Shown here one piece after another: positions 1-12,437 of a DNA stretch of 12,437 bases; position 1 is the stretch's first letter; each line of letters opens with the position of its first letter. The stretch comes from a virus (lineage: Duplodnaviria > Heunggongvirae > Uroviricota > Caudoviricetes), in IMG/VR virus record IMGVR_UViG_2671180415_000014. One strand, given 5' to 3'. The notes under the pieces were generated by a model, which was given only the letters and a program-made list of their open reading frames with translations, ran no database searches and was not told the origin of the DNA. The translations under genes and the position numbers were made by a program.

Positions 1-201
1 CTACATATAGTGCTATATACAGGGCTATATAACGATATATAGATGCTTGGTCACATGGTGTAACTATCAAACCACTTAACAATTTCCTACGTGAAAGTTA
101 GAAAGTGATGGTTACAGTTACCCTCCTAAAATCTTCATAGTTGATTCGGTTAGTTGGGCTTGTACCAACCCCTAATCAACCTCATAGCTCCTTCATAACC
201 A

Positions 202-227
202 GTCTTAAAAGGACTTCCTTTTGAGAC
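202..227. promoter_or_regulatory. 26-bp imperfect palindrome with 12-2-12 architecture (gtcttaaaagga-ct-tccttttgagac); candidate serine-recombinase crossover site or operator
   Basis: Read directly: the two 12-bp half-sites are reverse complements at 11 of 12 positions around a 2-bp centre, the same geometry as hix/gix/cix-type sites. Sequence similarity to canonical hix half-sites is only partial. Confidence 0.35.
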
Positions 228-232
228 ACTTT

Positions 233-262
233 CAACGTAACGGTAGAATGCACCCTCAAGTA
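233..262 (+). repeat. 30-bp direct repeat, copy 1 (caacgtaacggtagaatgcaccctcaagta), abutting the left edge of an N-masked block
   Basis: Exact 30/30 identity with 475-504. The copy ends exactly at the mask boundary, so the true repeat may be longer. Confidence 0.9.
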
Positions 263-474
263 NNNNNNNNNNNNNNNNNNNNNNNNNNNNNNNNNNNNNN
301 NNNNNNNNNNNNNNNNNNNNNNNNNNNNNNNNNNNNNNNNNNNNNNNNNNNNNNNNNNNNNNNNNNNNNNNNNNNNNNNNNNNNNNNNNNNNNNNNNNNN
401 NNNNNNNNNNNNNNNNNNNNNNNNNNNNNNNNNNNNNNNNNNNNNNNNNNNNNNNNNNNNNNNNNNNNNNNNNN

Positions 475-504
475 CAACGTAACGGTAGAATGCACCCTCA
501 AGTA
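475..504 (+). repeat. 30-bp direct repeat, copy 2, abutting the right edge of the N-masked block
   Basis: Exact identity with 233-262 at a 242-bp offset. Its left neighbour is masked, so the repeat may extend further. Confidence 0.9.
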
Positions 505-530
505 GTCTCAAAAGGTTGTTTTTGGATTAT
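505..530. promoter_or_regulatory. Second candidate recombination/operator site: a half-site (gtctcaaaagg) matching the 202-227 palindrome, followed by a degenerate partner half (tttttggattat)
   Basis: 505-515 is the exact reverse complement of 217-227. The partner half loosely resembles the GGTTTTTGATAA-type hix/gix half-site. It lies about 50 bp upstream of the recombinase start. Confidence 0.25.
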
Positions 531-566
531 GAGACAGCTAAGCTTATGAGACTAACTTTTGAGACT
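527..566 (+). repeat. Three direct copies of a tNtgagac motif (527-535, 545-553, 558-566) just upstream of the recombinase start
   Basis: Read directly. The same gagac/gtctc core occurs in the half-sites at 202-227 and 505-515. Possible protein-binding sites. Confidence 0.3.
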
Positions 567-581
567 TCTAAGGGGAACATT

Positions 582-1133
582 ATGGCGATACTTGGATATT
601 GCAGGGTGAGTACAGATGACCAATCCATCACTAACCAGCAAATGCAAATTGAAGAGGCAGGGTACAACATTGCTAAATGGTTCGCTGATGAAGCTGTCAG
701 TGGTTCTGTCAAAGCTTCTTTAAGAAACGGTTTCAGCAGTTTGTTAGCTTATGCACGAGAAGGTGACACCGTAGTTGTGGTAGCTGTAGACCGTCTTGGA
801 CGTGACACAATTGATGTGTTATCAACGGTTAAAGCGCTACAGGCTAAAGGTGTGACAGTTATCAGCCTTAGAGAAGGATTTGACTTATCAAGCGCTATGG
901 GTGAAGCAATGTTAGGCATTATGTCAACGTTGGCACAGCTTGAAAGAAGCTTGATAGCAGAGCGTAGAAAGGCTGGTATTGAACGTGCTAAAGCTGAAGG
1001 GGTACATATGGGAAGACCTGTAAAAGCTTCTTCAGAGGCTGTACAGATGCTTATTTCACAAGGTAAAACGAGGTTGCAGATTCAGGAAGAGCTAGGAATC
1101 TCTAGAGCAACTTATTACAGACTTGCTAAATAA
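582..1133 (+). CDS. Small serine recombinase, DNA invertase/resolvase family (Hin/Gin/Cin/Pin-like), 183 aa
   Basis: N-terminus MAILGYCRVSTDDQS carries the catalytic-serine motif; VDRLGRD motif present; C-terminal GRP...ISRATYYRLA matches the resolvase-type HTH. RBS aagggga sits 6-7 nt upstream of the ATG at 582. The six-frame ORF beginning at 516 is an upstream read-through. Confidence 0.85.
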   Translation: MAILGYCRVSTDDQSITNQQMQIEEAGYNIAKWFADEAVSGSVKASLRNGFSSLLAYAREGDTVVVVAVDRLGRDTIDVLSTVKALQAKGVTVISLREGFDLSSAMGEAMLGIMSTLAQLERSLIAERRKAGIERAKAEGVHMGRPVKASSEAVQMLISQGKTRLQIQEELGISRATYYRLAK

Positions 1134-1501
1134 GTTACTGAATAGTTACATGGATGTAGCTGATATTTGGCTTTTTTGCCAAGGGGGTCACATAGCTGGT
1201 GTGACGGGTACTAAACACGTATACATCATGAGGTAGATTCTACCGAATCAACTAGACAGATATTTTCGAAGATTCGGGGAAGATGAGATTCAAAGAGGGC
1301 TAGTCATTTTTTATAAAAATTTTCAGACTCTGAAAAGTTACTGTACAGAATATATACAGATATCTTTAAAGTATCTGTAAAAACTTTTAAGATAAAAGAT
1401 AGATATCCCAGAAAGGATATCCGTTTAGAAAACCTGTTAAGCATCTCTTAAAAGAGAGTAAACCTTGTCAAGAGTGATTGCAATAAAAATTTTTATTTCT
1501 T

Positions 1502-2164
1502 ATGTCAATTGAGCATATTTTAATCGGGAAGCATCATGGGGGTTCTGATTACTGGAGAACTCCATTTTTGTTATTTAAGAACTTACACCGTGAATTTATT
1601 TTCAGTCTAGATGGTGCTGCAACTGAGCATGACACGCTGTTACCACGATTCACCGATGATATAAGCCGTCAATCATGGGTTAGTGAAAAGGTCTTCTGTA
1701 ACCCGCCGTACAGCGATATTCCGTCGTTCCTCTTAAAAGCGTCTGAAGCGGATTTAGTAGCTTTCCTGATACCGCATAGAGCCAACACCAGCTACTGGCT
1801 TAGGCACATTTACAGCAATAACCACTGTCATGAAATCCGTATTCTTCATCGTGCAGTTAAATACCTTCCACCAGCAGGCCATAACGGGCTTACTATTCGT
1901 TCACCGTTTCCTAGTGCAGTCGTTGTTTTTAAAAAAGAACCACGTAAGCACGAAATTACACAGACGGTTTGCTGTGGTGACACGCTATTACCGTTAACCA
2001 TCATTAACAGAGGAGGCTTGAGAGGAAGACCCACCATTTACCCACCTGAGACGCTCGACAGCTTCATAAAACTATACAGGCAAGGAAAACCCATTAAGTG
2101 CATTGCAGATGCTCTCAGAATGCCTCTGAGCACGTCATACAGGATTGCTCAAAGGTTGAGCTAA
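1502..2164 (+). CDS. Phage-type DNA N6-adenine methyltransferase with a C-terminal resolvase-like HTH extension, 220 aa
   Basis: WRTP...FSLDGAAT...FCNPPYS contains the (D/N)PPY motif typical of small phage N6A methyltransferases. The C-terminal roughly 60 aa (GRPTIYPPETLDSFIKLYRQGKPIKCIADALRMPLSTSYRIAQRL) parallels the recombinase HTH (GRP...QGKT..IQEELGISRATYYRLA). No obvious Shine-Dalgarno before the ATG. Confidence 0.7.
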   Translation: MSIEHILIGKHHGGSDYWRTPFLLFKNLHREFIFSLDGAATEHDTLLPRFTDDISRQSWVSEKVFCNPPYSDIPSFLLKASEADLVAFLIPHRANTSYWLRHIYSNNHCHEIRILHRAVKYLPPAGHNGLTIRSPFPSAVVVFKKEPRKHEITQTVCCGDTLLPLTIINRGGLRGRPTIYPPETLDSFIKLYRQGKPIKCIADALRMPLSTSYRIAQRLS

Positions 2165-2546
2165 AATTCTCATAAATATGGTCATTTACAAGATAGGTGA
2201 TTCAGATATTAAGAAGTATCCCTGTGAACAATAAATGACCAATCAGTAATTATTCTGTGAAATAATTGTTGCAATTTATAATCACATCTGTTATAGTTTT
2301 TATATGGGGTGATAAAAGAACTCAGAACATTAAGAGGTTACAACGTTGGGAGGCGTCAGGGTATTGACAGATTTTCACGGCCTCTTATTCAATCAAGGCT
2401 TTTCCTTTTGCTGTTAATACTCGCGTAATCGCTCAGGCTTCTGAGTTCCTTTATCAGTCCATCTTCTAATTAATTCACTCCCTCTGGGGTTGGTCACTAT
2501 ACGTGGTCAGCCCTTTCTTTGTTTTATTTTTAAAAAGGAAAATATA

Positions 2547-3368
2547 ATGGAAAAATTCCACATGTTTGATGACCGTATTTATCAGATGACTAATGGCGTT
2601 AAAGCTGCCGACCGTATTATTTACACTGTCATGTTGAATGAACAAAAGTTTTATCACGATAAGGGGCAATATTATACCCCTTCATATGCTCATCTTGGTC
2701 AGTATGCTGGAATCACAAGAACATCCGTGATTGCATGTATGAAACAACTTGAGGCACATGGTTTAATCAAGAAAACTAACGTTGCAAGCAATCAGTGTGT
2801 TATTAAAGTTTATTCACTTGATGAAGTACCGGAGGTTTTAACAGAGCTTACAGCTAAGGAAGCCAGAAAGGCAAAGCTGGAGTCTAAAGTTACTCAGTCA
2901 GTCAAGAAAGATGACCCACTGAGTCAAAATTCTTTACCCACTGAGTCAAAATTTTTTACTCAGTCAGTCAAAATCTTTGACACGTATAATAACAGTAATA
3001 ACAAGAAAGAACTTATTAATAACAATAAAGAAGATGACTTTGAAGAAGAATATTTTAAGAAGGGAGCTTCGCTCTGTGATTCACATGAATGTGATTCTCT
3101 TGGTATTGAAGAGGCTATTAAAGAGACTGTTNNNNNNNNNNNNNNNNNNNNNNNNNNNNNNNNNNNNNNNNNNNNNNNNNNNNNNNNNNNNNNNNNNNNN
3201 NNNNNNNNNNNNNNNNNNNNNNNNNNNNNNNNNNNNNNNNNNNNNNNNNNNNNNNNNNNNNNNNNNNNNNNNNNNNNNNNNNNNNNNNNNNNNNNNNNNN
3301 NNNNNNNNNNNNNNNNNNNNNNNNNNNNNNNNNNNNNNNNNNNNNNNNNNNNNNNNNNNNNACTTTGA
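2547..3368 (+). CDS. Phage replication initiator (lambda O-like / replisome organizer) with winged-HTH N-terminal domain; 3' part N-masked
   Basis: RBS aaaaggaa then ATG at 2547. N-terminal domain with HTH-like segment YAHLGQYAGITRTSVIACMKQLEAHGLIKK. Iterons and an AT-rich tract lie inside the coding region as in lambda O. The frame runs into the mask at 3132-3361 and the in-frame stop is at 3366-3368; the true 3' end is uncertain. Confidence 0.6.
   Translation: MEKFHMFDDRIYQMTNGVKAADRIIYTVMLNEQKFYHDKGQYYTPSYAHLGQYAGITRTSVIACMKQLEAHGLIKKTNVASNQCVIKVYSLDEVPEVLTELTAKEARKAKLESKVTQSVKKDDPLSQNSLPTESKFFTQSVKIFDTYNNSNNKKELINNNKEDDFEEEYFKKGASLCDSHECDSLGIEEAIKETVXXXXXXXXXXXXXXXXXXXXXXXXXXXXXXXXXXXXXXXXXXXXXXXXXXXXXXXXXXXXXXXXXXXXXXXXXXXXXL
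2891..2978 (+). repeat. Four tandem 22-bp iterons (agtcaa core at 2900, 2922, 2944, 2966); putative replication origin
   Basis: Units tactcagtcagtcaagaaagat / gacccactgagtcaaaattctt / tacccactgagtcaaaattttt / tactcagtcagtcaaaatcttt, with an exact 22-bp period. Outer pair and inner pair are each near-identical. Confidence 0.8.
2979..3060 (+). promoter_or_regulatory. AT-rich tract immediately after the iterons; candidate DNA-unwinding element of the origin
   Basis: The run acacgtataataacagtaataacaagaaagaacttattaataacaataaagaagatgac is strongly A/T-rich and directly follows the iterons, the lambda ori-type arrangement. Confidence 0.5.
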
Positions 3369-3474
3369 TGATAGTGACGATGATTTTACTTTTACACCAA
3401 AAAAGAAAACTCACACCGAGCCAAAGAAAGAAAAAGTTAAAGTCAGACGTGTTTATGGTGGAGGAATGTTTTAA
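3362..3474 (+). CDS. 3' end of a coding frame emerging from the masked block (FDDSDDDFTFTPKKKTHTEPKKEKVKVRRVYGGGMF); either the C-terminus of the initiator or a gene starting inside the mask
   Basis: Open in frame +1 relative to the initiator frame. Its stop TAA overlaps the next ATG (TAATG at 3472-3476), typical translational coupling. The start is hidden by the mask. Confidence 0.35.
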
Positions 3475-3770
3475 TGAAAACTTATAATGGCGAGAGAAAA
3501 TACCGTGACTATTTACTCAGACGTTACAGCATTTCTCGTGAAGGTTACTTGATGAAAGATACTCACGGGGAAGTTTACCGGATTCGACCGAAGAAAGAAG
3601 GGAGGGATTATTATTTCGTCGATGATGTGACAGATTTAAAGATTGACGCTTTGAAGTTTGCGGTGCTGTATCATTACGATTTATGGGATTCAGTCCACCA
3701 GCTACGATTAAAAGACGGTGACCCCGGTAATCTGAGGGCCACCAATATTATCAAGGGAAAGTGCCGGTAA
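3474..3770 (+). CDS. Hypothetical protein, 98 aa
   Basis: ATG overlaps the upstream stop; ggtggagga lies 8 nt upstream. No family recognised by eye. Confidence 0.5.
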   Translation: MKTYNGERKYRDYLLRRYSISREGYLMKDTHGEVYRIRPKKEGRDYYFVDDVTDLKIDALKFAVLYHYDLWDSVHQLRLKDGDPGNLRATNIIKGKCR

Positions 3771-3779
3771 GGCCACCAG

Positions 3780-3956
3780 CTATTTATTTACTGAAATCTC
3801 TATCTCAACACGAAGAAGTTTAAGTCGAATTGTAAGCTTTGTCTTTTTTGTAATGACTCGATTCATAACGCAAAACACCAATAGCACAATAAATACCGCA
3901 AAGCCCAACGAGCTAAAACGATGAGATTCAATAATTGCTGTGAAAAAATCATGCAT
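3780..3956 (-). CDS. Small single-pass membrane protein, 58 aa, on the opposite strand
   Basis: Minus-strand ATG at 3954-3956 preceded by aaaggaaa. Hydrophobic stretch LGFAVFIVLLVFCVM followed by basic residues. Convergent with the upstream plus-strand gene. The longer ORF to 3986 would need a GTG start. Confidence 0.4.
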   Translation of the reverse strand: MHDFFTAIIESHRFSSLGFAVFIVLLVFCVMNRVITKKTKLTIRLKLLRVEIEISVNK

Positions 3957-4093
3957 TAATTTTCCTTTTGTGAAAGGAAACAGCACCTGTATCAGCCCCT
4001 ACAACCATAGTATCATGTAAATGAGGTACTGACAATATGTTAAATAGATGTTAAGATTGTAGTATGAGTAAGAGATTTAAGGAGATTTTTACA

Positions 4094-4384
4094 ATGACTC
4101 ACACAGTTACGCGCCTTTTGCCAGAGGCATTTGAACGACTGGCAGCAATCAAAGCCAAATATCCCGATATGAAGCACACAGCGCTTGTTGGGGAGATTTT
4201 AAAAGAGTCGGTAAACCTTAGCCCTTTCGATAACGTTAAGGGCGTCGCAGAGGGTTCTAAGGCCATCAGAATCACAACGGGCCAACTGGAACTACTCAAA
4301 GCACAGTCCGCAGTAGCAGGTTGCTCAATGATTCAGGTGTTAAGCGCTAAGGTCCATCAACTGGCGGATAGATTGGAGGTTTAA
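4094..4384 (+). CDS. Hypothetical protein, 96 aa (possible small DNA-binding regulator)
   Basis: Strong RBS taaggag 9 nt upstream of the ATG at 4094; stop overlaps the next start. The sequence is faintly ribbon-helix-helix-like, which is a weak impression only. Confidence 0.5.
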   Translation: MTHTVTRLLPEAFERLAAIKAKYPDMKHTALVGEILKESVNLSPFDNVKGVAEGSKAIRITTGQLELLKAQSAVAGCSMIQVLSAKVHQLADRLEV

Positions 4385-4605
4385 TGTGTTATAGGTTCCA
4401 ATATTCCACACTTGGCCGCCACCTAATCAGACAGAATTTAGCAGATGCTGAATTTGAAGATGTGACCCTCAAAGCAAACAAACGATTAAAACCCTCTCAA
4501 ATCCACCAGCTTAAACACGAATTAAAGCCACTGGTAATACTCGACTATAACGACCCTGAACAGCTTGAGCAGGGAATTAAGCTTATTTCTGAATGGGGTG
4601 CTTGA
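4384..4605 (+). CDS. Hypothetical protein, 73 aa
   Basis: TAATG stop/start overlap with the upstream gene, preceded by ggagg. Its stop TGA overlaps the next ATG at 4605. Confidence 0.45.
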   Translation: MCYRFQYSTLGRHLIRQNLADAEFEDVTLKANKRLKPSQIHQLKHELKPLVILDYNDPEQLEQGIKLISEWGA

Positions 4606-4847
4606 TGAAAACNNNNNNNNNNNNNNNNNNNNNNNNNNNNNNNNNNNNNNNNNNNNNNNNNNNNNNNNNNNNNNNNNNNNNNNNNNNNNNNNNNNNNNNN
4701 NNNNNNNNNNNNNNNNNNNNNNNNNNNNNNNNNNNNNNNNNNNNNNNNNNNNNNNNNNNNNNNNNNNNNNNNNNNNNNNNNNNNNNNNNNNNNNNNNNNN
4801 NNNNNNNNNNNNNNNNNNNNNNNNNNNNNNNNNNNNAACGTTTTTAA
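4605..4847 (+). CDS. Hypothetical protein, about 80 aa, almost entirely N-masked
   Basis: ATGA overlap with the upstream stop (4603-4607). The frame exits the mask and stops at 4845-4847. Content cannot be assessed. Confidence 0.3.
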   Translation: MKXXXXXXXXXXXXXXXXXXXXXXXXXXXXXXXXXXXXXXXXXXXXXXXXXXXXXXXXXXXXXXXXXXXXXXXXXXXXRF

Positions 4848-4939
4848 GCCCCTAATCAGGGTAACTTAGGGAATCGCCTTAAGTGGTCTAAAAAAGGGGT
4901 TAAAACGTCTTAGAATGCGATACAGGAAGGATTTTAAAA

Positions 4940-5245
4940 ATGAATTACCCAATGCAAATTATGGTTGACCAAGAAACCATGAATTGGTTGATTGACCTGA
5001 ACAGGTCGGGCTTTAATATCTATTTCATGCATTGTTTTGAAGCGTCAACGTATATTGACAAGCATATAATCAACGAAATTAAACTTGGTGACTATGTTCA
5101 CAAGCTGGAAGTAACAGACCCATACAATAAGCGCTTTATCATTGAAGAGTGCAATCGACTTGATTTAAGCCCTGAGCAATTATTGAAGCTGAATGTATTC
5201 TTGACCTATCAGAATGAATTAAACCCTTACAGCGAGGTGATGTAA
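4940..5245 (+). CDS. Hypothetical protein, 101 aa
   Basis: RBS aggaagg 9 nt upstream of the ATG at 4940. No family recognised. Confidence 0.5.
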   Translation: MNYPMQIMVDQETMNWLIDLNRSGFNIYFMHCFEASTYIDKHIINEIKLGDYVHKLEVTDPYNKRFIIEECNRLDLSPEQLLKLNVFLTYQNELNPYSEVM

Positions 5246-5322
5246 TGACACTCGTTATTCTCTGGATGACTTTAGGGTTATTTGTTGGTTGCTGGGTAGG
5301 TAATACGGTAAATAAGAATTGA
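5245..5322 (+). CDS. Very small hydrophobic peptide, 25 aa (MTLVILWMTLGLFVGCWVGNTVNKN)
   Basis: TAATG overlap with the upstream stop; gaggtg lies 5 nt upstream. A single hydrophobic helix-length segment. Too short for the supplied ORF track. Confidence 0.3.
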   Translation: MTLVILWMTLGLFVGCWVGNTVNKN

Positions 5323-5346
5323 TGTTACCAATCTGTTAAAAAGCTG

Positions 5347-5375
5347 TTGACAAATAACCTTAAGCATGAGATGAT
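5347..5375 (+). promoter_or_regulatory. Candidate sigma70-type promoter (TTGACA, 17-bp spacer, GATGAT)
   Basis: Perfect -35 hexamer at 5347-5352 and a 4/6 -10 at 5370-5375, in the intergenic gap upstream of the gene that starts within or near the next mask. Confidence 0.3.
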
Positions 5376-5382
5376 GGTAATA

Positions 5383-5399
5383 GGGAAGAGCAACTCTTC
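5383..5399. promoter_or_regulatory. 17-bp perfect palindrome ggaagag-caa-ctcttcc just downstream of the putative -10; candidate operator
   Basis: Read directly: 7-bp arms are exact reverse complements around a 3-bp centre. Confidence 0.3.
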
Positions 5400-5756
5400 C
5401 TGAATTAAACTATTAATCATTCTACATCAATGATAGTTATTCTGAAAGGTGCAATGCTTTTCGCTACATGACCTTTCAGGTNNNNNNNNNNNNNNNNNNN
5501 NNNNNNNNNNNNNNNNNNNNNNNNNNNNNNNNNNNNNNNNNNNNNNNNNNNNNNNNNNNNNNNNNNNNNNNNNNNNNNNNNNNNNNNNNNNNNNNNNNNN
5601 NNNNNNNNNNNNNNNNNNNNNNNNNNNNNNNNNNNNNNNNNNNNNNNNNNNNNNNNNNNNNNNNNNNNNNNNNNNNNNNNNNNNNNNNNNNNNNNNNNNN
5701 NNNNNNNNNNNNNNNNNNNNNNNNNNNNNNNNNNNNNNNNNNNNNNNNNNNNNNNN

Positions 5757-6439
5757 AAGTGATTGATAGCTTCAGTGACTGGTCGCCACAGACTGAACAT
5801 CCAGCTATCACTATTCAGCGTAAAGAGCATGACAAGCGTATTGAGCTTGAGCAATCGCTAAAGATGTCACCAAAAACAACCATCTTTGTGTCTCCTGAGC
5901 CTCAAGAGATGCCTGATATTTGCAAGAGTGAAGCATTACTTGAGCTTGAAAAGAAATATTACCAACTGCTGAAAGAACAGCGCCTTAGATTAGATGACGC
6001 TTACAGCAAAGTTACCTTGATGCAATCAGCTATTGAGCCGTCAGAATTTGAGATTCAGGATGAATTGTCACAGAAACCATTTGTCTATTACCAATACGAA
6101 GATAATGATGGTTTTGGTACTTTTCAAGAAAACGTCGCAGCCGTGATTAGTAGTCTTCCTGCTGGACATCGAATTGTGAAGATGGTTAAGGCATCAAGAG
6201 GTGCTGGTCAGTTTATTTACATGACTAATAAGAGCGATGAAGAACTCGCTGAAATTGCTAGACAGAACATCTTGGCATCACGTAACAAGCAACTTGATAA
6301 TGTTAAGTTGTATCTCTCAAGAGAGCTTCAGGCTATGAAAGAGCTTGTGAAAGAATATGAAGATGCTAAGAAGATTGCTATGCAGGCTGATATTGAGCAG
6401 CTTACGAAGATTTCTAGCAAATATGCAAAGGCTATTTAA
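5757..6439 (+). CDS. Hypothetical phage protein; only the C-terminal 227 aa are visible, the start is in or before the masked block 5482-5756
   Basis: Long open frame with coding-like composition ending at TAA 6437-6439. First gene after the putative promoter. No family recognised. Confidence 0.55.
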
Positions 6440-6463
6440 TTAATAATTAAAAGGTGGTGGTGA

Positions 6464-6670
6464 ATGATTGATTTAACAGAACGCTATGAGCTTATTAAAG
6501 CAATTAGTGAACGATTGAAAGAACAACCCAACAAACCAAAACGAATCAAATCATTCACCTCCTCTAAGCAAAAGAATAGAATCAGGAAAATAGCTAAGTG
6601 GTGTCTTGATAAATTACCAAGTGATTGTCAGATTGTTGGTGAAGATGGTAATTATTATCTGGTTAGGTAA
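6464..6670 (+). CDS. Hypothetical protein, 68 aa
   Basis: RBS aggtgg 6 nt upstream of the ATG at 6464. Basic, lysine-rich middle region. Confidence 0.45.
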   Translation: MIDLTERYELIKAISERLKEQPNKPKRIKSFTSSKQKNRIRKIAKWCLDKLPSDCQIVGEDGNYYLVR

Positions 6671-6768
6671 CAAGATTGGTTGGGTGAAAATCTACGGGAG
6701 AGATTATCGAGTGATATCGGTAGTCTTTCCCTTTTTCGTATATGAACACTTAAAGAGGTGAAACATGA

Positions 6769-8949
6769 ATGAGCAAATTCACAGTTGATAGTTTTATCGT
6801 TGAACTTAGTTTCAGTGAAAACGTTATTAAGGGCTTGCAAAGAGTTGAAAAGGCAGCTTTGCAGTCAGCACAAAGAATTGAACGCAATTTGAATAGAGCG
6901 TTTAAGGTCGATACCAAGCAACTTGACAGCAATCTGACAAGTTCTTTAGGGCAGCTTGAAAGGAAGTTTAATAAGACCTTTGACAAGATTGAGCAGAGAG
7001 CAAGAAGCACAAAAGCATTTCAGTTTGCCACCAGATTTAATGACACTGTTAATCCTCCAAAACAATCAAGGCAACCACGAATTAGCGGAAACAGAGCAAT
7101 CACAGCAGCGCATAGCGTGAATATGTCTAAGCTTGGTGATATTAATCCGCTGATGGCTAAAATGTTTAAAGCACAGTATTACAGCTTAAGCGGTAAGGCT
7201 GGTAATATTGGAAGTGAAAAGTTTAACGCTGAACTTGCAAAATTAAATCAATCTCTTCGTGAAACGTTGAATAAACTCAGGTCACAGACAAAGACCGCCA
7301 GCATTAACAATACAAGCGACGCATTTAATAATCTTGCAAGCAATGCGATTAAATTATCTGGTGCATTTTACTCTGTGATGGGTGCTCTTAACGCTTACAA
7401 GGCCATTATGAATGCAGGTCTTAAACGAGATTCCGCACAGAGAGCCGCTAAGTTTGTACTTGGTGATAAAGCATCTGAAGCTGAGGTATTTATTCGAAAT
7501 TTAGCAGACAAGACAGGTCTTAATATCTCTGAAGGGCTATCAAGCTACGCTAAGTTTGCAGCAGGTGCTCAGGGTTCTATGTCACAGGAACAGACACAGG
7601 AGCTATTTGGTAATGCAACGGCTATGAGTCGCTTAATGGGGCTTTCTAACGATGAGCTAAACGGCATTTTGAGAGCATTTGAGCAGATGGCGAGCAAGGG
7701 CAAGATTCAGGCTGAGGAATTACGTGGGCAGTTAGGTGACCGTATGGCTGGTGCATTTAAGCTATTCGCTGAAGCATTGGGTATGACTGCTACAGAGCTT
7801 GATGCAGCCATGAAAAACGGGAAGGTACTTTCCGCTGATACTCTCCCTAAAGTCGCTAAACAGATGGGCTTGATGATTGATAAAGCGGGTGGCTGGGCTG
7901 AAGTCACTAAGAGCACTCAGACAGCTTTAGGTAAGTTAGCAAACAATTGGGATGATACGATGGTGAAAATCTTCTCAGGTTCACAGGATGAGCTAAACGG
8001 CTTCTTATCCAGCCTGAGTAACCTGCTTAGTGAAATGGGGATGAGTTCTTCTATCGCTGGTGATGCTATCGGTGGACTTATCGACATGCTTAAAGCTGGT
8101 GTAGATGATATTCGCGTATTCAATAACACCATTGAAGGCTGGATTTTACAGACTAAGAAGTTCTATTACAGCCTTGATGACACTAAACGAAAACTACTTG
8201 ATGAAGTCGGTGATGGTTTTATCAACTTCGTCAAAGGTCTTGCTATAGCGTTATCTGCAAAGACGCTATTCAGTGCTACTACAGGGGTTATGAACCTGAC
8301 AAGAGCAATCACAACGTTAGGTACAAGAGCTAATCAGGTGGCTGGTCAGGTAGCTACTGGTAAAGGTGGTGGAAAACTGAAAGGTGTAGCTGGTGGTGTA
8401 GGTAGTGCTCTTGCAATTGGTTATGCTGATGACGGTTATGAAACAGCGTTAGCATTAGCTTCAATGATTCCACAAATCAGAGGCGTCACTCTTGGTTTAT
8501 ATGCATTGAAGAAAGCACTGGATTTTATGAATCAGGAAGTAGTCAAAAACGCTAATATGCATCCGTCTGGGGTAGGTGTGGGTAGTGACTTTAATCCCGT
8601 GTATTCTGGTGACCCTAATAAACCGAATATGATTAACGAAGGATGGAGTAGAATTTTTAGTTCAATGGGTGAATTGTTTAACAATGCCACAATGAATATT
8701 GCAAGATTCAATCATCCAGAGTTAAACAACATTAAGCAAGATTCAGCATTAACGAGTGCAGATATTCAGGGTCTGAGGGATGAAATTAGTGCTTTGAGTA
8801 AGCGTATTCAGGAGCCAGTGAAAGTTTCACTTGGTGGTCAAGTTGTCGTTCGACCAGATGAACCATCTTTCTTTACTTTCAATCAATCAGCTAATGACCA
8901 GTTCACGCAGGATATGCTCTTAAGTTCAAGCTATCCAGAGGAAGAATGA
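6769..8949 (+). CDS. Phage tail tape measure protein, 726 aa
   Basis: RBS agaggtg 8 nt upstream. Long helical N-terminal part; the segment LRAFEQMASKGKIQAEELRGQLGDRMAGAFKLFAEALGMTATELDAAMKNGKVLSADTLPKVAKQMG matches my recollection of the conserved tape-measure domain; glycine-rich hydrophobic segment GGGKLKGVAGGVGSALAIGYA. Size fits a tape measure. Confidence 0.75.
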   Translation: MSKFTVDSFIVELSFSENVIKGLQRVEKAALQSAQRIERNLNRAFKVDTKQLDSNLTSSLGQLERKFNKTFDKIEQRARSTKAFQFATRFNDTVNPPKQSRQPRISGNRAITAAHSVNMSKLGDINPLMAKMFKAQYYSLSGKAGNIGSEKFNAELAKLNQSLRETLNKLRSQTKTASINNTSDAFNNLASNAIKLSGAFYSVMGALNAYKAIMNAGLKRDSAQRAAKFVLGDKASEAEVFIRNLADKTGLNISEGLSSYAKFAAGAQGSMSQEQTQELFGNATAMSRLMGLSNDELNGILRAFEQMASKGKIQAEELRGQLGDRMAGAFKLFAEALGMTATELDAAMKNGKVLSADTLPKVAKQMGLMIDKAGGWAEVTKSTQTALGKLANNWDDTMVKIFSGSQDELNGFLSSLSNLLSEMGMSSSIAGDAIGGLIDMLKAGVDDIRVFNNTIEGWILQTKKFYYSLDDTKRKLLDEVGDGFINFVKGLAIALSAKTLFSATTGVMNLTRAITTLGTRANQVAGQVATGKGGGKLKGVAGGVGSALAIGYADDGYETALALASMIPQIRGVTLGLYALKKALDFMNQEVVKNANMHPSGVGVGSDFNPVYSGDPNKPNMINEGWSRIFSSMGELFNNATMNIARFNHPELNNIKQDSALTSADIQGLRDEISALSKRIQEPVKVSLGGQVVVRPDEPSFFTFNQSANDQFTQDMLLSSSYPEEE

Positions 8950-8961
8950 TTTAACGGTGTT

Positions 8962-9014
8962 CTACGTGAATAAAGCAAAGTTAATACCCACACCAAAAAT
9001 TATTTTTCACGTAG
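8962..9014. promoter_or_regulatory. Inverted repeat ctacgtgaa ... ttcacgtag (9-13 bp arms, about 35-bp spacer) after the tape-measure gene
   Basis: Read directly. Not followed by a T-run, so not a canonical intrinsic terminator. Confidence 0.3.
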
Positions 9015-9044
9015 CTCACGCTTAACAGAGAAAATACATATATA

Positions 9045-9850
<806 letters not shown>

Positions 9851-10000
9851 TTTGGCATCCATCTCCGATCACAGTTTGGCATCACAATCGATCACGATTT
9901 GGCATACTTCCGATCATTGATTGGAATTCGCCAGTCACTCCGGGAATTAACTCTTTTCACCACAGTCTCCATTGCCGTGTTTAAACCAGTGGAGACGTCA

Positions 10001-11566
10001 ATGTCCAAAAAGAGAAAATCCAGGAGCACTATGGAAACTTGTTTTAAGATCCTTCAGCTCAAGTTCGATAAGAAGCTGACTAACCGTTGTATCGGACTGA
10101 CGTTACACATCAGCGCCTCAACCGTTTTTGAGGTTCTTGCCCGCTTCAAAGCCTCTTCTCTGTCATGGCCATTACCTGCGGATATATCCCATGACACGCT
10201 GGAGAAACTCATTTTCCCGCCCAAAGACACCTCTGCGTCAGAGCTTGTTATGCCTGACATGCTGTACTTCGATACGGAAATGAGAAAACCTGGCGTGACG
10301 CGCCAACTGTTGTGGATGGAATACAAGGCACAGGCGGGTGACAAAGCGATGGGATACTCACACTTCTGCCGTTGCTACCGGAAGTGGAAAAAAACGCGAC
10401 GCCTCTCCATGCGACAGGAGCATCGTGCTGGCGAAAAGCTCTTTATCGACTTCTGTGGTCCTACGGTCCCTGTTATTAATCCGGACACCGGAGAGATACG
10501 CCGCGTGGCAATCTTCGTGGCTGTAATGGGGGCGTCCAACTATACCTATGTTGAAGCGTGCGAAGGTCAGGACATGATGTCATGGTTAAATGCCCACAGC
10601 CGTTGCCTGACCTTCCTGGGCGGCGTACCGAAGCTGCTCATCCCCGATAACCTCAGAAGCGCAGTGAAAAAAGCCGATCGCTATGAGCCTGTCATCAACG
10701 ACAGTTATCAGGCGCTGGCTGAGCACTATGGCACGGTTATTATCCCGGCCCGCCCGCGCAAACCTAAAGATAAACCAAAAGCAGAAAACGGCGTCCTCAT
10801 CGTCGAGCGATGGCTTCTTGCCCGCATCCGTAATGAAACCTTCCACACGCTCAGGGCGCTGAATGCACGCCTTCGGGAGTTGCTGACGGACATGAATAAC
10901 CGACCAATGAAGGGATACGGTAATCAAACCCGCGCAGAACGCTTCCGCATGCTGGATGCACCAGCACTCTCTCCGCTGCCTCTGGAGCCTTATGAATACA
11001 CGGAATACAAAGCCGTGAAGGTTGGCCCTGACTACCACGTTGAATATGCCCGTCACTGGTACTCCGTTCCACACGAACTGGTCGGTCAGCGTCTGTCACT
11101 GAAGGTGGGGCAGTCGGTGGTACAGCTCTGGCACAAGGGGCAGTGTGTGGCGCAACATCCGCGCAGCACACATGAATATAAACACACAACCAATCCGCTT
11201 CACATGCCAGAACGCCACCGGCGGCATGGGACATGGACACCGGAACGCCTTATCGAGCAGGGAAACCGTACAGGTCCGTCCACAGGCCGGGTGGTTGAAT
11301 CCATGCTGAAAGCCAAACCCCATCCGGAGCTGGCTTACCGTGCAGTCCTGGGTCTGCTGGCACTTCAGAAAAAATACGGCCCGGAACGGCTGGAAAAGGC
11401 CTGTTACGTTGCCCTGCACTATAACGCCCCGGACAGACGCTTTATCGACAATCTGCTGCGTCATCATCGGGATAACGTTGAGCTTCCGTTATCCCGCCAG
11501 GGCGAACAACATCCGGCATATGCTTCAGAGCATGAAAACCTGCGTGGTCCTGGCTACTACCACTGA
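10001..11566 (+). CDS. istA: IS21-family transposase IstA, 521 aa
   Basis: RBS ggaga 5 nt upstream of the ATG at 10001; N-terminal HTH region; long DDE-type core; followed 16 bp later by istB. The ORF-track start at 9899 lies inside the terminal repeats and is unlikely. Confidence 0.85.
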   Translation: MSKKRKSRSTMETCFKILQLKFDKKLTNRCIGLTLHISASTVFEVLARFKASSLSWPLPADISHDTLEKLIFPPKDTSASELVMPDMLYFDTEMRKPGVTRQLLWMEYKAQAGDKAMGYSHFCRCYRKWKKTRRLSMRQEHRAGEKLFIDFCGPTVPVINPDTGEIRRVAIFVAVMGASNYTYVEACEGQDMMSWLNAHSRCLTFLGGVPKLLIPDNLRSAVKKADRYEPVINDSYQALAEHYGTVIIPARPRKPKDKPKAENGVLIVERWLLARIRNETFHTLRALNARLRELLTDMNNRPMKGYGNQTRAERFRMLDAPALSPLPLEPYEYTEYKAVKVGPDYHVEYARHWYSVPHELVGQRLSLKVGQSVVQLWHKGQCVAQHPRSTHEYKHTTNPLHMPERHRRHGTWTPERLIEQGNRTGPSTGRVVESMLKAKPHPELAYRAVLGLLALQKKYGPERLEKACYVALHYNAPDRRFIDNLLRHHRDNVELPLSRQGEQHPAYASEHENLRGPGYYH

Positions 11567-11582
11567 CAGAAGGAACAACCGT

Positions 11583-12338
11583 ATGAGTGATAATCTGTTA
11601 AACAAACTGACCCAACTGAAACTCCCGGCGATGGCCGGGAGCCTGATACGGCAACGGGAAACGCCTCAGACTTACGACGAACTGTCGTTCGAGGAAAGGC
11701 TGACACTGCTGGTTGATGACGAGCTTCTGAGCAGAGAAAACAGTCGTGTGGCACGGTTGAGAAAAAATGCCTGCCTGAAATATCAGGCAACACCGGAAGG
11801 GCTGCGTTATCCGGCCTCAAGAGGTCTGCGGGCTGAACAGATGAGGGAACTGCTGAACGGCCACTACATAATCCACAGGAAAAACCTACTGATAACCGGT
11901 CCGACAGGATGCGGTAAGAGCTGGATAGCCAATGCGCTGGGCGAACAGGCATGTCGACAGAAATACAGCGTCCGGTACTGTAGAACCGGGCGATTACTGG
12001 AACAGTTGGCTCAGGGACGTGTTGATGGCAGTTGGCTGAAATATCTGAAACAGTTGCAAAAAATACAGGTTCTAATCCTGGACGATCTGGGGCTGGAACA
12101 GTTAAGTAACGCCCAGTGTAATGACCTTCTGGAGATCACAGAGGATCGTTACGGACAAAGCAGCACGATAGTGGTAAGCCAGTTCCCGGTAGATAAATGG
12201 CATGGTCTGATGGAGAACCCAACAACAGCAGATGCCATCCTGGACAGACTGGTACATAACTCACACAGAGTGGTCCTTCAGGGAGAGTCCCTGAGGAAAA
12301 ATCCCCCGACAGTGGAAAGCAGCGAAAAAACGAGTTAA
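11583..12338 (+). CDS. istB: IS21-family ATP-binding helper protein IstB, 251 aa
   Basis: Walker A GPTGCGKS and Walker B VLILDDLG; RBS aggaa 7 nt upstream. The ORF-track start at 11340 overlaps istA in another frame and is unlikely. Confidence 0.85.
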   Translation: MSDNLLNKLTQLKLPAMAGSLIRQRETPQTYDELSFEERLTLLVDDELLSRENSRVARLRKNACLKYQATPEGLRYPASRGLRAEQMRELLNGHYIIHRKNLLITGPTGCGKSWIANALGEQACRQKYSVRYCRTGRLLEQLAQGRVDGSWLKYLKQLQKIQVLILDDLGLEQLSNAQCNDLLEITEDRYGQSSTIVVSQFPVDKWHGLMENPTTADAILDRLVHNSHRVVLQGESLRKNPPTVESSEKTS

Positions 12339-12364
12339 AAAGCGGTAGAAAAAGTTAAGTTCCC

Positions 12365-12430
12365 GGTTGATCGAATGGATGCGAATCGCTGATCGAACTT
12401 CGATGCCAATCCGTGATCGAATAGAGCGGA
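12365..12430 (-). repeat. IS right-end repeats (tgatcgaa / atgccaat units), inverted relative to the left-end repeats
   Basis: Three copies of tgatcgaa at about 24-bp spacing, reverse-complementary to the cgatca...ttggcat units at the left end. Truncated by the window end. Confidence 0.6.
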
Positions 12431-12437
12431 ATACGCA

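What the first reader, a model, noticed from the sequence alone, without database searches (positions are those of the whole stretch)
200..581. Recombinase-site-like palindromes and a 30-bp direct repeat bracketing a masked 212-bp segment upstream of the serine recombinase
A 26-bp palindrome with hix/gix-like 12-2-12 geometry sits at 202-227, and a copy of its half-site sits at 505-515 in inverted orientation relative to 217-227. Between them, identical 30-bp sequences at 233-262 and 475-504 abut both edges of the mask, implying a repeat of period 242 bp whose real extent is hidden. Three tNtgagac motifs follow at 527-566. This could be a short invertible or excisable switch, a tandem duplication, or repeated binding sites for the recombinase or the methyltransferase HTH. 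Classical invertible segments are kilobase-sized with inverted, not direct, repeats, so the arrangement is unusual.
Basis: seen in the sequence. Interest (0 to 1): 0.6.

Follow-up and report, generated by a model that had tools for sequence, protein, structure and literature searches.

The report
Assembly gap beside a resolvase site
The "masked segment" is an unsequenced gap in a draft E. coli/Shigella assembly, and the 30-base repeat around it is almost certainly an assembly artefact; what is real is an ordinary-looking cluster of recombinase binding sites and a promoter in front of a resolvase gene.

Summary
The framing is wrong. The window is the whole public draft contig CWTA01000117.1 (GCA_001250475.1), and its four N runs are scaffold gaps, not masks. 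For the other three gaps, the true lengths in genomes with 100%-identical flanks are 256, 251 and 267 bp, against 230, 224 and 275 N. N-run length is therefore only an estimate, and the "242-bp period" is not an observation.

In 39 of 39 other occurrences of the 30-mer (E. coli, Shigella-type genomes, E. albertii, metagenomes), it is single-copy and directly joins the palindrome to GTCTCAAAAGG. The duplicated 30-mer is best read as an unmerged contig overlap. Thirty nt equals GapFiller's default k-mer and k-1 of a 31-mer graph.

The real feature is a conserved ~122-bp region upstream of a 183-aa small serine recombinase closest to gamma-delta/Tn3 resolvase. It holds six GTCTCA-type half-sites arranged 12-2-12, 12-7-12 and 12-1-12, overlapping a TTGAGA-17-TAGAAT promoter. 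The best reading is a res-like recombination and autoregulation site. No second crossover site exists in the island, so there is no invertible switch.

Interest is low. In passing, the island looks like an undescribed satellite of Felix O1-like phages.

The parts
202..227 (.). Site I: 26-bp imperfect palindrome (12-2-12), GTCTTAAAAGGA CT TCCTTTTGAGAC; candidate crossover site and operator
   Evidence: pair I4. It occurs once in the window and once in the complete island L001, against 0 expected by chance. It is conserved in alignment A3 and in 39 loci.
221..249 (+). Sigma-70-type promoter-like site, TTGAGA-17-TAGAAT (10 of 12). The -35 lies in the right arm of site I and the -10 lies inside the 30-mer.
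   Evidence: it is the best promoter-like match in the region. Both hexamers are invariant in A3.
233..262 (.). 30-mer, copy at the 3' end of the first scaffold piece (1-262)
   Evidence: (family D1)
263..474 (.). Scaffold gap (212 N) in the public draft record; not a mask, and its length is an estimate
   Evidence: The other three gaps are mis-sized relative to genomes with identical flanks.
475..504 (.). 30-mer, copy at the 5' end of the second scaffold piece (475-3131); most likely the same genomic bases as 233-262
   Evidence: It is single-copy and contiguous in 39 of 39 other loci and in L001-L011.
505..535 (.). Site II: inverted pair of half-sites, GTCTCAAAAGGT (505-516) and GGATTATGAGAC (524-535), 12-7-12
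   Evidence: The cores are invariant in A3.
541..565 (+). Site III: two half-sites in direct orientation, AGCTTATGAGAC (541-552) and AACTTTTGAGAC (554-565), 12-1-12
   Evidence: family D2
570..576 (+). Ribosome-binding site, AAGGGGA, 6 nt before the ATG
   Evidence: Read from the sequence. GGGG is conserved in A3.
582..1133 (+). Small serine recombinase, 183 aa (Resolvase N-terminal domain plus HTH_7), with Ser10 aligned to the gamma-delta resolvase nucleophile
   Evidence: gamma-delta resolvase E 3e-30 to 3.5e-28, Tn3 2.6e-27, Gin 8e-22. PF00239 at 142.7 bits, HTH_7 at 23.9 bits.
1502..2164 (+). Context: Dam-type N6-adenine methyltransferase with a C-terminal resolvase-type HTH (aa 175-215), a possible second reader of the same half-sites
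   Evidence: PF05869; HTH_7 at 21.9 bits, below the cut-off; 33% identity to the recombinase HTH

Best explanation
The finding combines two things.

(1) An artefact. The window is a draft short-read scaffold. Positions 263-474 are a scaffold gap of estimated size, and the identical 30-mers on its edges are the same genomic bases written twice. In the real chromosome, 262 is most probably followed directly by 505.

(2) A real element. Read contiguously, 202-565 is a ~122-bp res-like site immediately upstream of a gamma-delta/Tn3-like small serine recombinase. It has three parts:
- a 26-bp palindrome (site I, the presumed crossover site);
- after a 35-bp spacer, a 31-bp inverted pair (site II);
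- after a 5-bp spacer, a 25-bp pair of direct half-sites (site III).

The gene's promoter has its -35 inside site I. Its -10 and likely start lie in the spacer, which is the '30-mer'.

Inferred mechanism: recombinase dimers bind the six half-sites. This represses the gene's own promoter. On multimers or cointegrates of the excised, replicating island, it also synapses two directly repeated copies and resolves them at site I.

Shown: the sequence anatomy, the conservation, the protein family, and the gap status. Inferred: binding, autoregulation and resolution.
For: Gap and artefact:
- The window equals CWTA01000117.1, Ns included, and gene calls end at the N edges.
- The three other N runs are 230, 224 and 275 N. 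The true lengths are 256, 251 and 267 bp in four or more genomes with 100%-identical flanks.
- The 30-mer is single-copy, preceded by ...GAGACACTTT and followed by GTCT(C/T)A..., in 39 of 39 other loci: complete genomes, drafts, a viral contig and 19 metagenome contigs.
- The 60 listed E. coli matches to the joined model all have a record span close to the query span; none shows about +242 bp.
- The pattern 30mer-N{200,225}-30mer has 0 hits in genome contigs and 0 in viral contigs.
- GapFiller extends both gap edges with 30-nt k-mers. It refuses closure if the insertion differs by more than 50 nt from the estimated gap, and its authors say correct closures can be rejected for this reason (PMC3446322). 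The Sanger pipeline paper says SSPACE and GapFiller are greedy and can make false joins (PMC5320598).
- The scaffold is demonstrably composite. Positions 475-1878 are 100% identical to one island type and 1705-12437 to a paralogous island type of the same genomes. Sister drafts of this locus show nonsensical resolvase-dam-resolvase-dam joins with 1-N gaps.

Res-like site:
- Palindrome statistics and TGAGAC clustering.
- Promoter TTGAGA-17-TAGAAT.
- Conservation runs from the right half of site I to the RBS: 0.93 mean pairwise column identity. The N-terminal two-thirds of the coding sequence scores 0.77-0.83 and the DNA upstream of site I scores 0.29. The recombinase HTH-coding part is the most conserved part of the gene, at 0.90-0.94 (A3).
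- Closest solved proteins are gamma-delta and Tn3 resolvases.
- The paralogous island carries a different resolvase at the same position, with its own upstream cluster of TGTCTATAG-type half-sites.
Against: - The implied gap overestimate (+242) is much larger than for the other three gaps (8-27 nt).
- Piece 1-262 is not the allele found upstream of the otherwise identical sequence in other genomes (93-94% identity, central dinucleotide CT rather than AG). It may come from another island copy, so the join itself may be false.
- I could not confirm which assembler produced the record; the accession is not in the pipeline paper's supplements.
- Site III has direct rather than inverted half-sites.
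- The half-site shares only GTCY with the Tn3-family consensus.
- Gamma-delta 2-3' interface residues are not conserved: Ala2, Tyr57 and Arg59 stand where gamma-delta has R2, K54 and E56. This comes from the alignment plus my recalled wild-type sequence.
- The conservation estimate is inflated by ascertainment, because most loci were found by exact match to the 30-mer.
- No binding or recombination data exist.
Confidence: 0.78

Rival explanations
1. The gap hides a real tandem duplication of about 240 bp (30-mer, sites II and III, and the first ~45 codons of the recombinase). Short-read assembly collapsed it, leaving the unit's first 30 nt at both gap edges.
For: - An overlap of exactly k-1 (30 nt for k=31) is what a de Bruijn graph gives where a node has two incoming paths.
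- A gap of 212 plus 30 would then be the unit length.
- The other three gap estimates in this scaffold are within about 30 nt of the truth, so a +242 error is an outlier.
Against: - No other genome or contig shows it: 39 of 39 are single-copy, with 0 hits to the spaced pattern and none among the listed E. coli genomes.
- Contig 475-3131 runs through the predicted right boundary (about 716) without a break.
- The left piece is a different allele from the right piece, which points to a false join rather than a local duplication.
- The scaffold is chimeric elsewhere.
Confidence: 0.09
2. The gap hides foreign or rearranged DNA (a small insertion, or an invertible or excisable cassette) bracketed by 30-bp direct repeats. 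This would be a recombinase-operated switch that separates the promoter from the gene.
For: - These islands do carry small variable inserts just upstream: a 47-57-bp palindromic segment at 131-187, with a further 27-bp insert in L001.
- The bases under the Ns are unknown.
Against: - Serine recombinases do not create 30-bp duplications.
- There is only one 26-bp site per island.
- The 30-mer carries the -10 of the promoter and is never seen in another context.
- Gap length is only an estimate.
Confidence: 0.03
3. The half-sites are operators only. They control transcription of the recombinase gene, through the recombinase itself or through the Dam methyltransferase's resolvase-type HTH. The recombinase's true recombination target lies elsewhere, or the enzyme is an invertase acting on a distant or trans site.
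For: - The promoter is embedded between sites I and II.
- Dam has an HTH_7-like tail 33% identical to the recombinase HTH.
- The 12-2-12 geometry and the TCAAAA core resemble hix, from my recalled hix sequence.
- The DLSSAMG motif at the start of helix E matches the Hin-derived segment of chimaera 2gm4.
Against: - A symmetric 26-bp site with a 2-bp centre, plus accessory sites next to the gene, is the standard layout of a recombination site, and in Tn3-type systems the same DNA is both res and operator.
- No partner site was found in the island.
- The protein is nearer to resolvases than to Gin.
Confidence: 0.2

Closest known systems
Tn3 / gamma-delta res site with TnpR resolvase
   Same: - The protein is 183 aa, like gamma-delta resolvase, and matches it at E 3e-30 to 3.5e-28 over its full length, with Ser10 aligned.
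- The site lies directly upstream of the gene and overlaps its promoter.
- It has three subsites built from 12-bp half-sites with different internal spacers.
- Site III is 25 bp and the II-III spacer is 5 bp, as in gamma-delta res. From established knowledge, gamma-delta has sites of 28, 34 and 25 bp, spacers of 22 and 5 bp, and 114 bp in all.
   Different: - There is no Tn3-family transposase and no terminal inverted repeats; the host element is a chromosomal island with a large serine recombinase.
- Site I is 12-2-12 rather than 12-4-12.
- The I-II spacer is 35 bp rather than 22.
- The site III half-sites are direct.
- The half-site is GTCTCAAAAGG rather than TGTCYNNTA.
- The 2-3' interface residues are not conserved.
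Hin/Gin/Cin/Pin DNA invertases with hix/gix sites
   Same: - The crossover-type site is 26 bp with 12-2-12 geometry, a TCAAAA core and a non-palindromic central dinucleotide.
- The protein matches Gin at E 8e-22.
- It has a DLSSAMG motif like the Hin segment of 2gm4.
   Different: - There is only one such site per island, so no invertible segment is defined.
- Four extra half-sites lie beside it, and invertase systems lack accessory sites.
- The protein scores better against resolvases.
- The NCBIfam Mpi invertase model scores 92.7 bits against a cut-off of 272.
Sin / beta recombinase res sites; plasmid multimer-resolution systems such as RP4 ParA
   Same: A crossover site is combined with an accessory site made of direct repeats, next to the gene, and serves multimer resolution of a replicon (established knowledge).
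   Different: - Similarity to Sin is much weaker (E 5.5e-13).
- There are three subsites here rather than two.
- No evidence was sought for a role of an architectural protein in the 35-bp spacer.
Duplicated gap flanks in scaffolded, gap-filled short-read assemblies (SSPACE/GapFiller, Velvet)
   Same: - The N run has an estimated size.
- The identical flanks have the length of the tool's k-mer (30), which is also k-1 of a 31-mer graph.
- False joins are acknowledged (PMC5320598).
   Different: The assembler used for GCA_001250475.1 could not be verified here. The link between a 30-nt overlap and k-mer exhaustion is my inference.

Membership tests
Small serine recombinase (resolvase/invertase family) | N-terminal catalytic domain with the Ser10 nucleophile in the YxRVSTxxQ motif | tested here: met
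   PF00239 at 142.7 bits. GYCRVSTDDQS aligns with gamma-delta GYARVSTSQQS.
Small serine recombinase (resolvase/invertase family) | C-terminal helix-turn-helix DNA-binding domain after a GR(P/K) arm | tested here: met
   HTH_7 at 23.9 bits against a cut-off of 23.8, aa 144-180. The match to gamma-delta resolvase runs over the full length to residue 181.
Tn3/gamma-delta-type res site | Located immediately upstream of the resolvase gene and overlapping its promoter | tested here: met
   Sites span 202-565 and the ATG is at 582. TTGAGA-17-TAGAAT lies at 221-249.
Tn3/gamma-delta-type res site | Three subsites, each an inverted pair of 12-bp half-sites with distinct spacers | tested here: inconclusive
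   Sites I (12-2-12) and II (12-7-12) are inverted pairs. Site III (12-1-12) has direct half-sites. An alternative pairing of 503-517 with 540-554 also exists (pair I3).
Tn3/gamma-delta-type res site | Half-site consensus TGTCYNNTA | tested here: not met
   The half-site is (A)GTCT(C/T)A(A/T)AAGG and shares only GTCY. The paralogous island's resolvase does have TGTCTATAG-type sites.
Tn3/gamma-delta-type res site | Part of a Tn3-family transposon (tnpA, 38-bp terminal repeats) | tested here: not met
   No Tn3 transposase is present in the window ORFs or in the fully annotated island L001.
Tn3/gamma-delta-type res site | Recombination between directly repeated copies, with crossover at the centre of site I | not testable with these tools
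   This needs in vivo or in vitro recombination assays.
Hin/Gin-type invertible segment | Two crossover sites in inverted orientation flanking the segment | tested here: not met
   The degenerate 26-bp pattern with up to 3 mismatches occurs once in the window and once in the 26-kb L001 locus.
Hin/Gin-type invertible segment | 26-bp site with 12-2-12 geometry | tested here: met
   pair I4: arms 202-213 and 216-227, with 2 nt between them.
Hin/Gin-type invertible segment | Fis-bound enhancer inside the 5' part of the recombinase gene | not tested
   No enhancer search was done.
Genuine direct repeat or tandem duplication bracketing DNA | Sequenced bases between the repeat copies | tested here: not met
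   The interval is an N run in the public record, and N lengths in this record are unreliable.
Genuine direct repeat or tandem duplication bracketing DNA | The same arrangement in related genomes | tested here: not met
   39 of 39 other occurrences are single-copy, with 0 spaced-pattern hits and no record span about 242 bp longer than the query among the 60 listed E. coli records.

The most novel reading that the evidence does not exclude
The six-half-site region and its resolvase would be the multimer-resolution and autoregulation cassette of an undescribed family of E. coli/Shigella phage satellites.

Features of the family:
- The satellites are integrated by a large serine recombinase, for example into the 5' end of tonB.
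- They depend on Felix O1-like (Ounavirinae) helper phages.
- They carry their own tape-measure and Dit-like tail genes.
- Next to the cassette they carry a regulatory module shared with the helper's non-coding region.
- The resolvase-plus-site cassette is swapped between islands at the same position.

A narrower version, in which the gap hides a real duplication or switch, has a probability of about 0.1.
Probability: 0.25. Interest if true: 0.6.

Novelty: new member of a known kind. Interest (0 to 1): 0.18.

Why it matters
There are two practical points.
- N runs in this kind of window can be scaffold gaps from the public record. Identical k-mer-length flanks around them are a recognisable assembly signature, not biology.
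- The real feature is an uncharacterised but conventional-looking resolvase site, whose architecture mixes traits of res (accessory sites, promoter overlap) and hix/gix (a 12-2-12 core).

The feature would matter mainly as a handle on the biology of the surrounding island. The island is widespread in E. coli and Shigella (thousands of assemblies) and may be a new kind of phage satellite.

Tried and rejected
- Megablast of 1-2500 against plasmids gave no match.
- Against phages, only a short block at 1174-1269 matched.
- I tried to recover the bases under the Ns with a spaced 30-mer pattern in genome contigs and viral contigs: 0 hits.
- The plain 30-mer gave 1 viral locus and 19 metagenome loci, all single-copy.
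- Exact-protein look-ups of the recombinase, tape measure and Dam found the source contig but no unscaffolded copy from the same isolate.
- I tested whether the other three gaps coincide with sequence shared between the two paralogous islands, which would indicate repeat collapse. They do not: those regions are only 76-81% identical or absent in the other island.
- I tested whether any natural sequence is 100% identical across both 1-262 and 505 onward. None is.
- The accession was not in the supplements of the Sanger pipeline paper.
- The search for related loci in genome contigs gave only two relatives.
- A paper search for 'phage satellite' plus 'Felixounavirus' returned nothing.
- I rejected an IS or MITE insertion with a target duplication: 30 bp is too long, and the gap is too short for an IS.
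- I rejected inversion between sites I and II: they are only about 64 bp apart in the contiguous sequence.

Full report
**Observation**

The sequence features are real and at the stated coordinates.
- Positions 202-227 read GTCTTAAAAGGA-CT-TCCTTTTGAGAC, with 12-nt arms that are 92% complementary and 2 nt between them (pair I4).
- A degenerate version of the 26-mer occurs once in the window and once in a complete relative island, against 0 expected in shuffles.
- GTCTCAAAAGG at 505-515 is the exact complement of 217-227 (pair I5).
- Identical 30-mers at 233-262 and 475-504 touch both edges of the N run at 263-474.
- Five of the six TGAGAC hexamers in the 12.4-kb window lie in 222-565.

**What the N run is**

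The window has four N runs: 263-474, 3132-3361, 4613-4836 and 5482-5756.

An exact-protein look-up of the window's Dam protein returned NCBI GCA_001250475.1 contig CWTA01000117.1. That contig is 12437 bp long, with the same gene coordinates as the window. Its first 6164 bases are identical to the window, Ns included, and its stored gene calls stop at the N edges. The window is therefore a whole draft scaffold, and the Ns are scaffold gaps in the public record, not a mask laid over known sequence.

From 3362 onward the sequenced parts of the window are 100% identical to several complete genomes, such as CP104423.1. In those genomes the three other gaps measure 256, 251 and 267 bp, against 230, 224 and 275 N in the window. 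N-run length here is an estimate. Neither '212 bp' nor 'period 242' is an observation.

**Relatives**

I checked the 30-mer in every locus I could reach:
- E. coli islands next to yciI/tonB;
- Shigella-type islands next to yecE/yecN/cmoA that encode the identical recombinase;
- E. albertii;
- one IMG/VR contig;
- 19 metagenome contigs.

In all of them the 30-mer occurs once, preceded by ...GAGACACTTT and followed by GTCT(C/T)A.... That is 39 of 39 occurrences outside the source contig.

A model with the 30-mer written once matched 418 E. coli genomes. None of the 60 listed matches spans about 242 bp more than the query. The pattern 30mer-N{200,225}-30mer has no hit in the species-representative genomes or in IMG/VR.

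**Why two copies of exactly 30 nt**

The scaffold is composite. Positions 475-1878 are 100% identical to the yecE-locus island. Positions 1705-12437 are 100% identical to a paralogous island at the rutG-wrbA locus of the same genomes. The switch falls in a 174-bp stretch of dam that the two islands share.

This hybrid Dam protein is on record only on contigs shorter than 20 kb. Sister drafts of the locus show impossible resolvase-dam-resolvase-dam chains with 1-N gaps.

Piece 1-262 is a different allele from what precedes the otherwise identical sequence elsewhere, so the join across the first gap may itself be false.

GapFiller extends both gap edges with 30-nt k-mers. It closes a gap only if the filled length is within 50 nt of the estimate, and its authors note that correct closures can be rejected when the estimate is wrong (PMC3446322). 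The Sanger pipeline, which produced hundreds of Shigella sonnei drafts, says SSPACE and GapFiller are greedy and can make false joins (PMC5320598).

Thirty nt is also k-1 of a 31-mer de Bruijn graph.

My inference is that the two ends overlap by 30 nt and were never merged. I could not verify the assembler for this record. The implied overestimate (+242) is larger than for the other gaps (8-27 nt). I therefore leave about 10% for a real tandem duplication and a few per cent for other hidden DNA.

**What is really there**

Read contiguously, with 262 followed by 505, the region is a compact 122-bp array:
- site I, 26 bp (12-2-12);
- a 35-bp spacer;
- site II, 31 bp: GTCTCAAAAGGT, 7 nt, GGATTATGAGAC;
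- a 5-bp spacer;
- site III, 25 bp: two direct half-sites, AGCTTATGAGAC and AACTTTTGAGAC, 1 nt apart;
- then the RBS and the ATG at 582.

The best promoter-like site in the region is TTGAGA-17-TAGAAT at 221-249. Its -35 lies in the right arm of site I and its -10 lies inside the '30-mer'. The right arm of site I and the left arm of site II are perfect 11-nt complements that bracket the -10.

**Conservation**

I compared 25 distinct islands.

| Region | Mean pairwise column identity |
|---|---|
| Right half of site I to the RBS | 0.93 |
| First two-thirds of the recombinase gene | 0.77-0.83 |
| HTH-coding end of the recombinase gene | 0.90-0.94 |
| DNA upstream of site I | 0.29 |

Binding sites and DNA-binding domain are thus conserved together while the catalytic domain drifts. 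One caveat: most loci were found by exact match to the 30-mer, which inflates the non-coding figure.

**The protein**

The protein is 183 aa, with PF00239 plus HTH_7. Matches to solved structures:

| Solved protein | E-value |
|---|---|
| gamma-delta resolvase | 3e-30 to 3.5e-28 (full length, Ser10 aligned) |
| Tn3 resolvase | 2.6e-27 |
| Gin | 8e-22 |
| Sin-type | 5.5e-13 |

No NCBIfam equivalog reaches its cut-off.

The paralogous island carries a different small resolvase at the same place on the other strand. It has its own upstream cluster of TGTCTATAG-type half-sites. A 'resolvase plus site' cassette is therefore a regular, exchangeable part of these islands.

**Mechanism**

This part is inferred. 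Recombinase dimers occupy the six half-sites. Occupancy of sites I and II covers the -35 and brackets the -10, giving autorepression.

The island has a large serine recombinase at its far end. It also has a DnaD/HTH-like putative replication protein with 22-bp tandem repeats inside its gene. When the island is present as a multimer or cointegrate, two directly repeated arrays would synapse and recombine at the centre of site I.

This is how Tn3/gamma-delta res works, by established knowledge. It is not a member of that family in the strict sense:
- the half-site consensus differs;
- site III is direct;
- there is no Tn3 transposase.

The invertase reading fails on its defining feature, because there is only one crossover-type site per island. 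An operator-only role, or a role for the Dam protein's resolvase-type HTH, is not excluded.

**Verdict**

The unusual part of the finding is an assembly artefact with high probability: the direct repeat bracketing a hidden segment, and the possible switch it implied. The palindromes and TGAGAC motifs are a genuine, conserved, uncharacterised res-like and promoter region of a known kind. Interest is low.

**In passing**

The island shares a patchy ~170-bp regulatory-looking block with a non-coding region of Felix O1-like phages. The block includes 47 nt at 100% identity. The island's 726-aa tape measure has its best full-length phage matches in the same phage group. Together these suggest an undescribed satellite-helper relationship. 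I did not pursue this further.

Noticed in passing
window 1160-1330 (47-nt core at 1220-1266): The intergenic DNA between the recombinase and dam aligns patchily over about 170 bp with a ~1.6-kb non-coding region of Felix O1-like phages (Moogle, JH2 and others). Shared blocks are TGATATTT..TTTTGCAAAGGGG, a 47-nt block at 100% identity, and TTTTATAAAAATTTT. It may be a shared promoter, operator or packaging signal.
   Followed up: partly
window 6769-8949; L001 20966-21736 and 21768-23288: The island's 726-aa tape measure has its best full-length matches among 50,697 phage records in the tape-measure proteins of 83-88-kb Felix O1-like phages (100% coverage, about 29% identity, E about 1e-70). 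The complete island also has a Dit-like tail protein and a large serine recombinase, and is inserted in the 5' end of tonB. It may be an undescribed satellite family; no paper was found.
   Followed up: partly
window 475-1878 versus 1705-12437: The scaffold is a perfect hybrid of two paralogous islands of the same genomes (yecE/cmoA locus and rutG-wrbA locus), switching inside a 174-bp identical stretch of dam. The hybrid Dam protein is on record only on contigs under 20 kb, in 42 blocks. This is either recurrent misassembly or a real inversion-type recombinant lineage.
   Followed up: partly
window 131-187; L002 2430-2486; L001 12136-12210: A 57-bp imperfect palindromic segment (TTGATTCGG...CCTAATCAA, flanked by TCATAG repeats) sits between the upstream region and site I in the window, L001 (with 27 extra bp), L030 and L035. 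In the yecE-locus islands it lies in the opposite orientation at the extreme left end. Related units, TGAGG-(T/A)(T/A)GATT...CCGAATCAAC-TA, recur, including inside the Felix O1-like 47-mer. This is unexplained.
   Followed up: partly
window 214-215 versus L002 2874-2875: The central dinucleotide of site I is CT in one allele group and AG (its reverse complement) in the other. Sequences to the right of the site centre are identical for more than 80 bp, and sequences to the left diverge. This would flip the polarity of a serine-recombinase crossover site.
   Followed up: no
window 1502-2164 (aa 175-215): The Dam-type methyltransferase carries a C-terminal resolvase-type HTH (HTH_7 at 21.9 bits, just under the cut-off). 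It is 33% identical to the recombinase's own HTH.
   Followed up: partly
L013 3604-4173 (minus strand) and 4175-4290: The paralogous island has a different 189-aa resolvase in the opposite orientation at the same position. Upstream of it are repeats of TGTCTATAG and TATATAGACA that fit the gamma-delta-type half-site consensus.
   Followed up: partly
L013 6087-6165 (about window 2900-2978): 22-bp tandem repeats (about 3 copies) lie inside the HTH/DnaD_N-like gene and are possible iterons.
   Followed up: no
window 9899-12338: An IS21-family istA/istB pair interrupts the right part of the island. In complete genomes, IS1 and IS3-family elements also disrupt the large serine recombinase gene.
   Followed up: no
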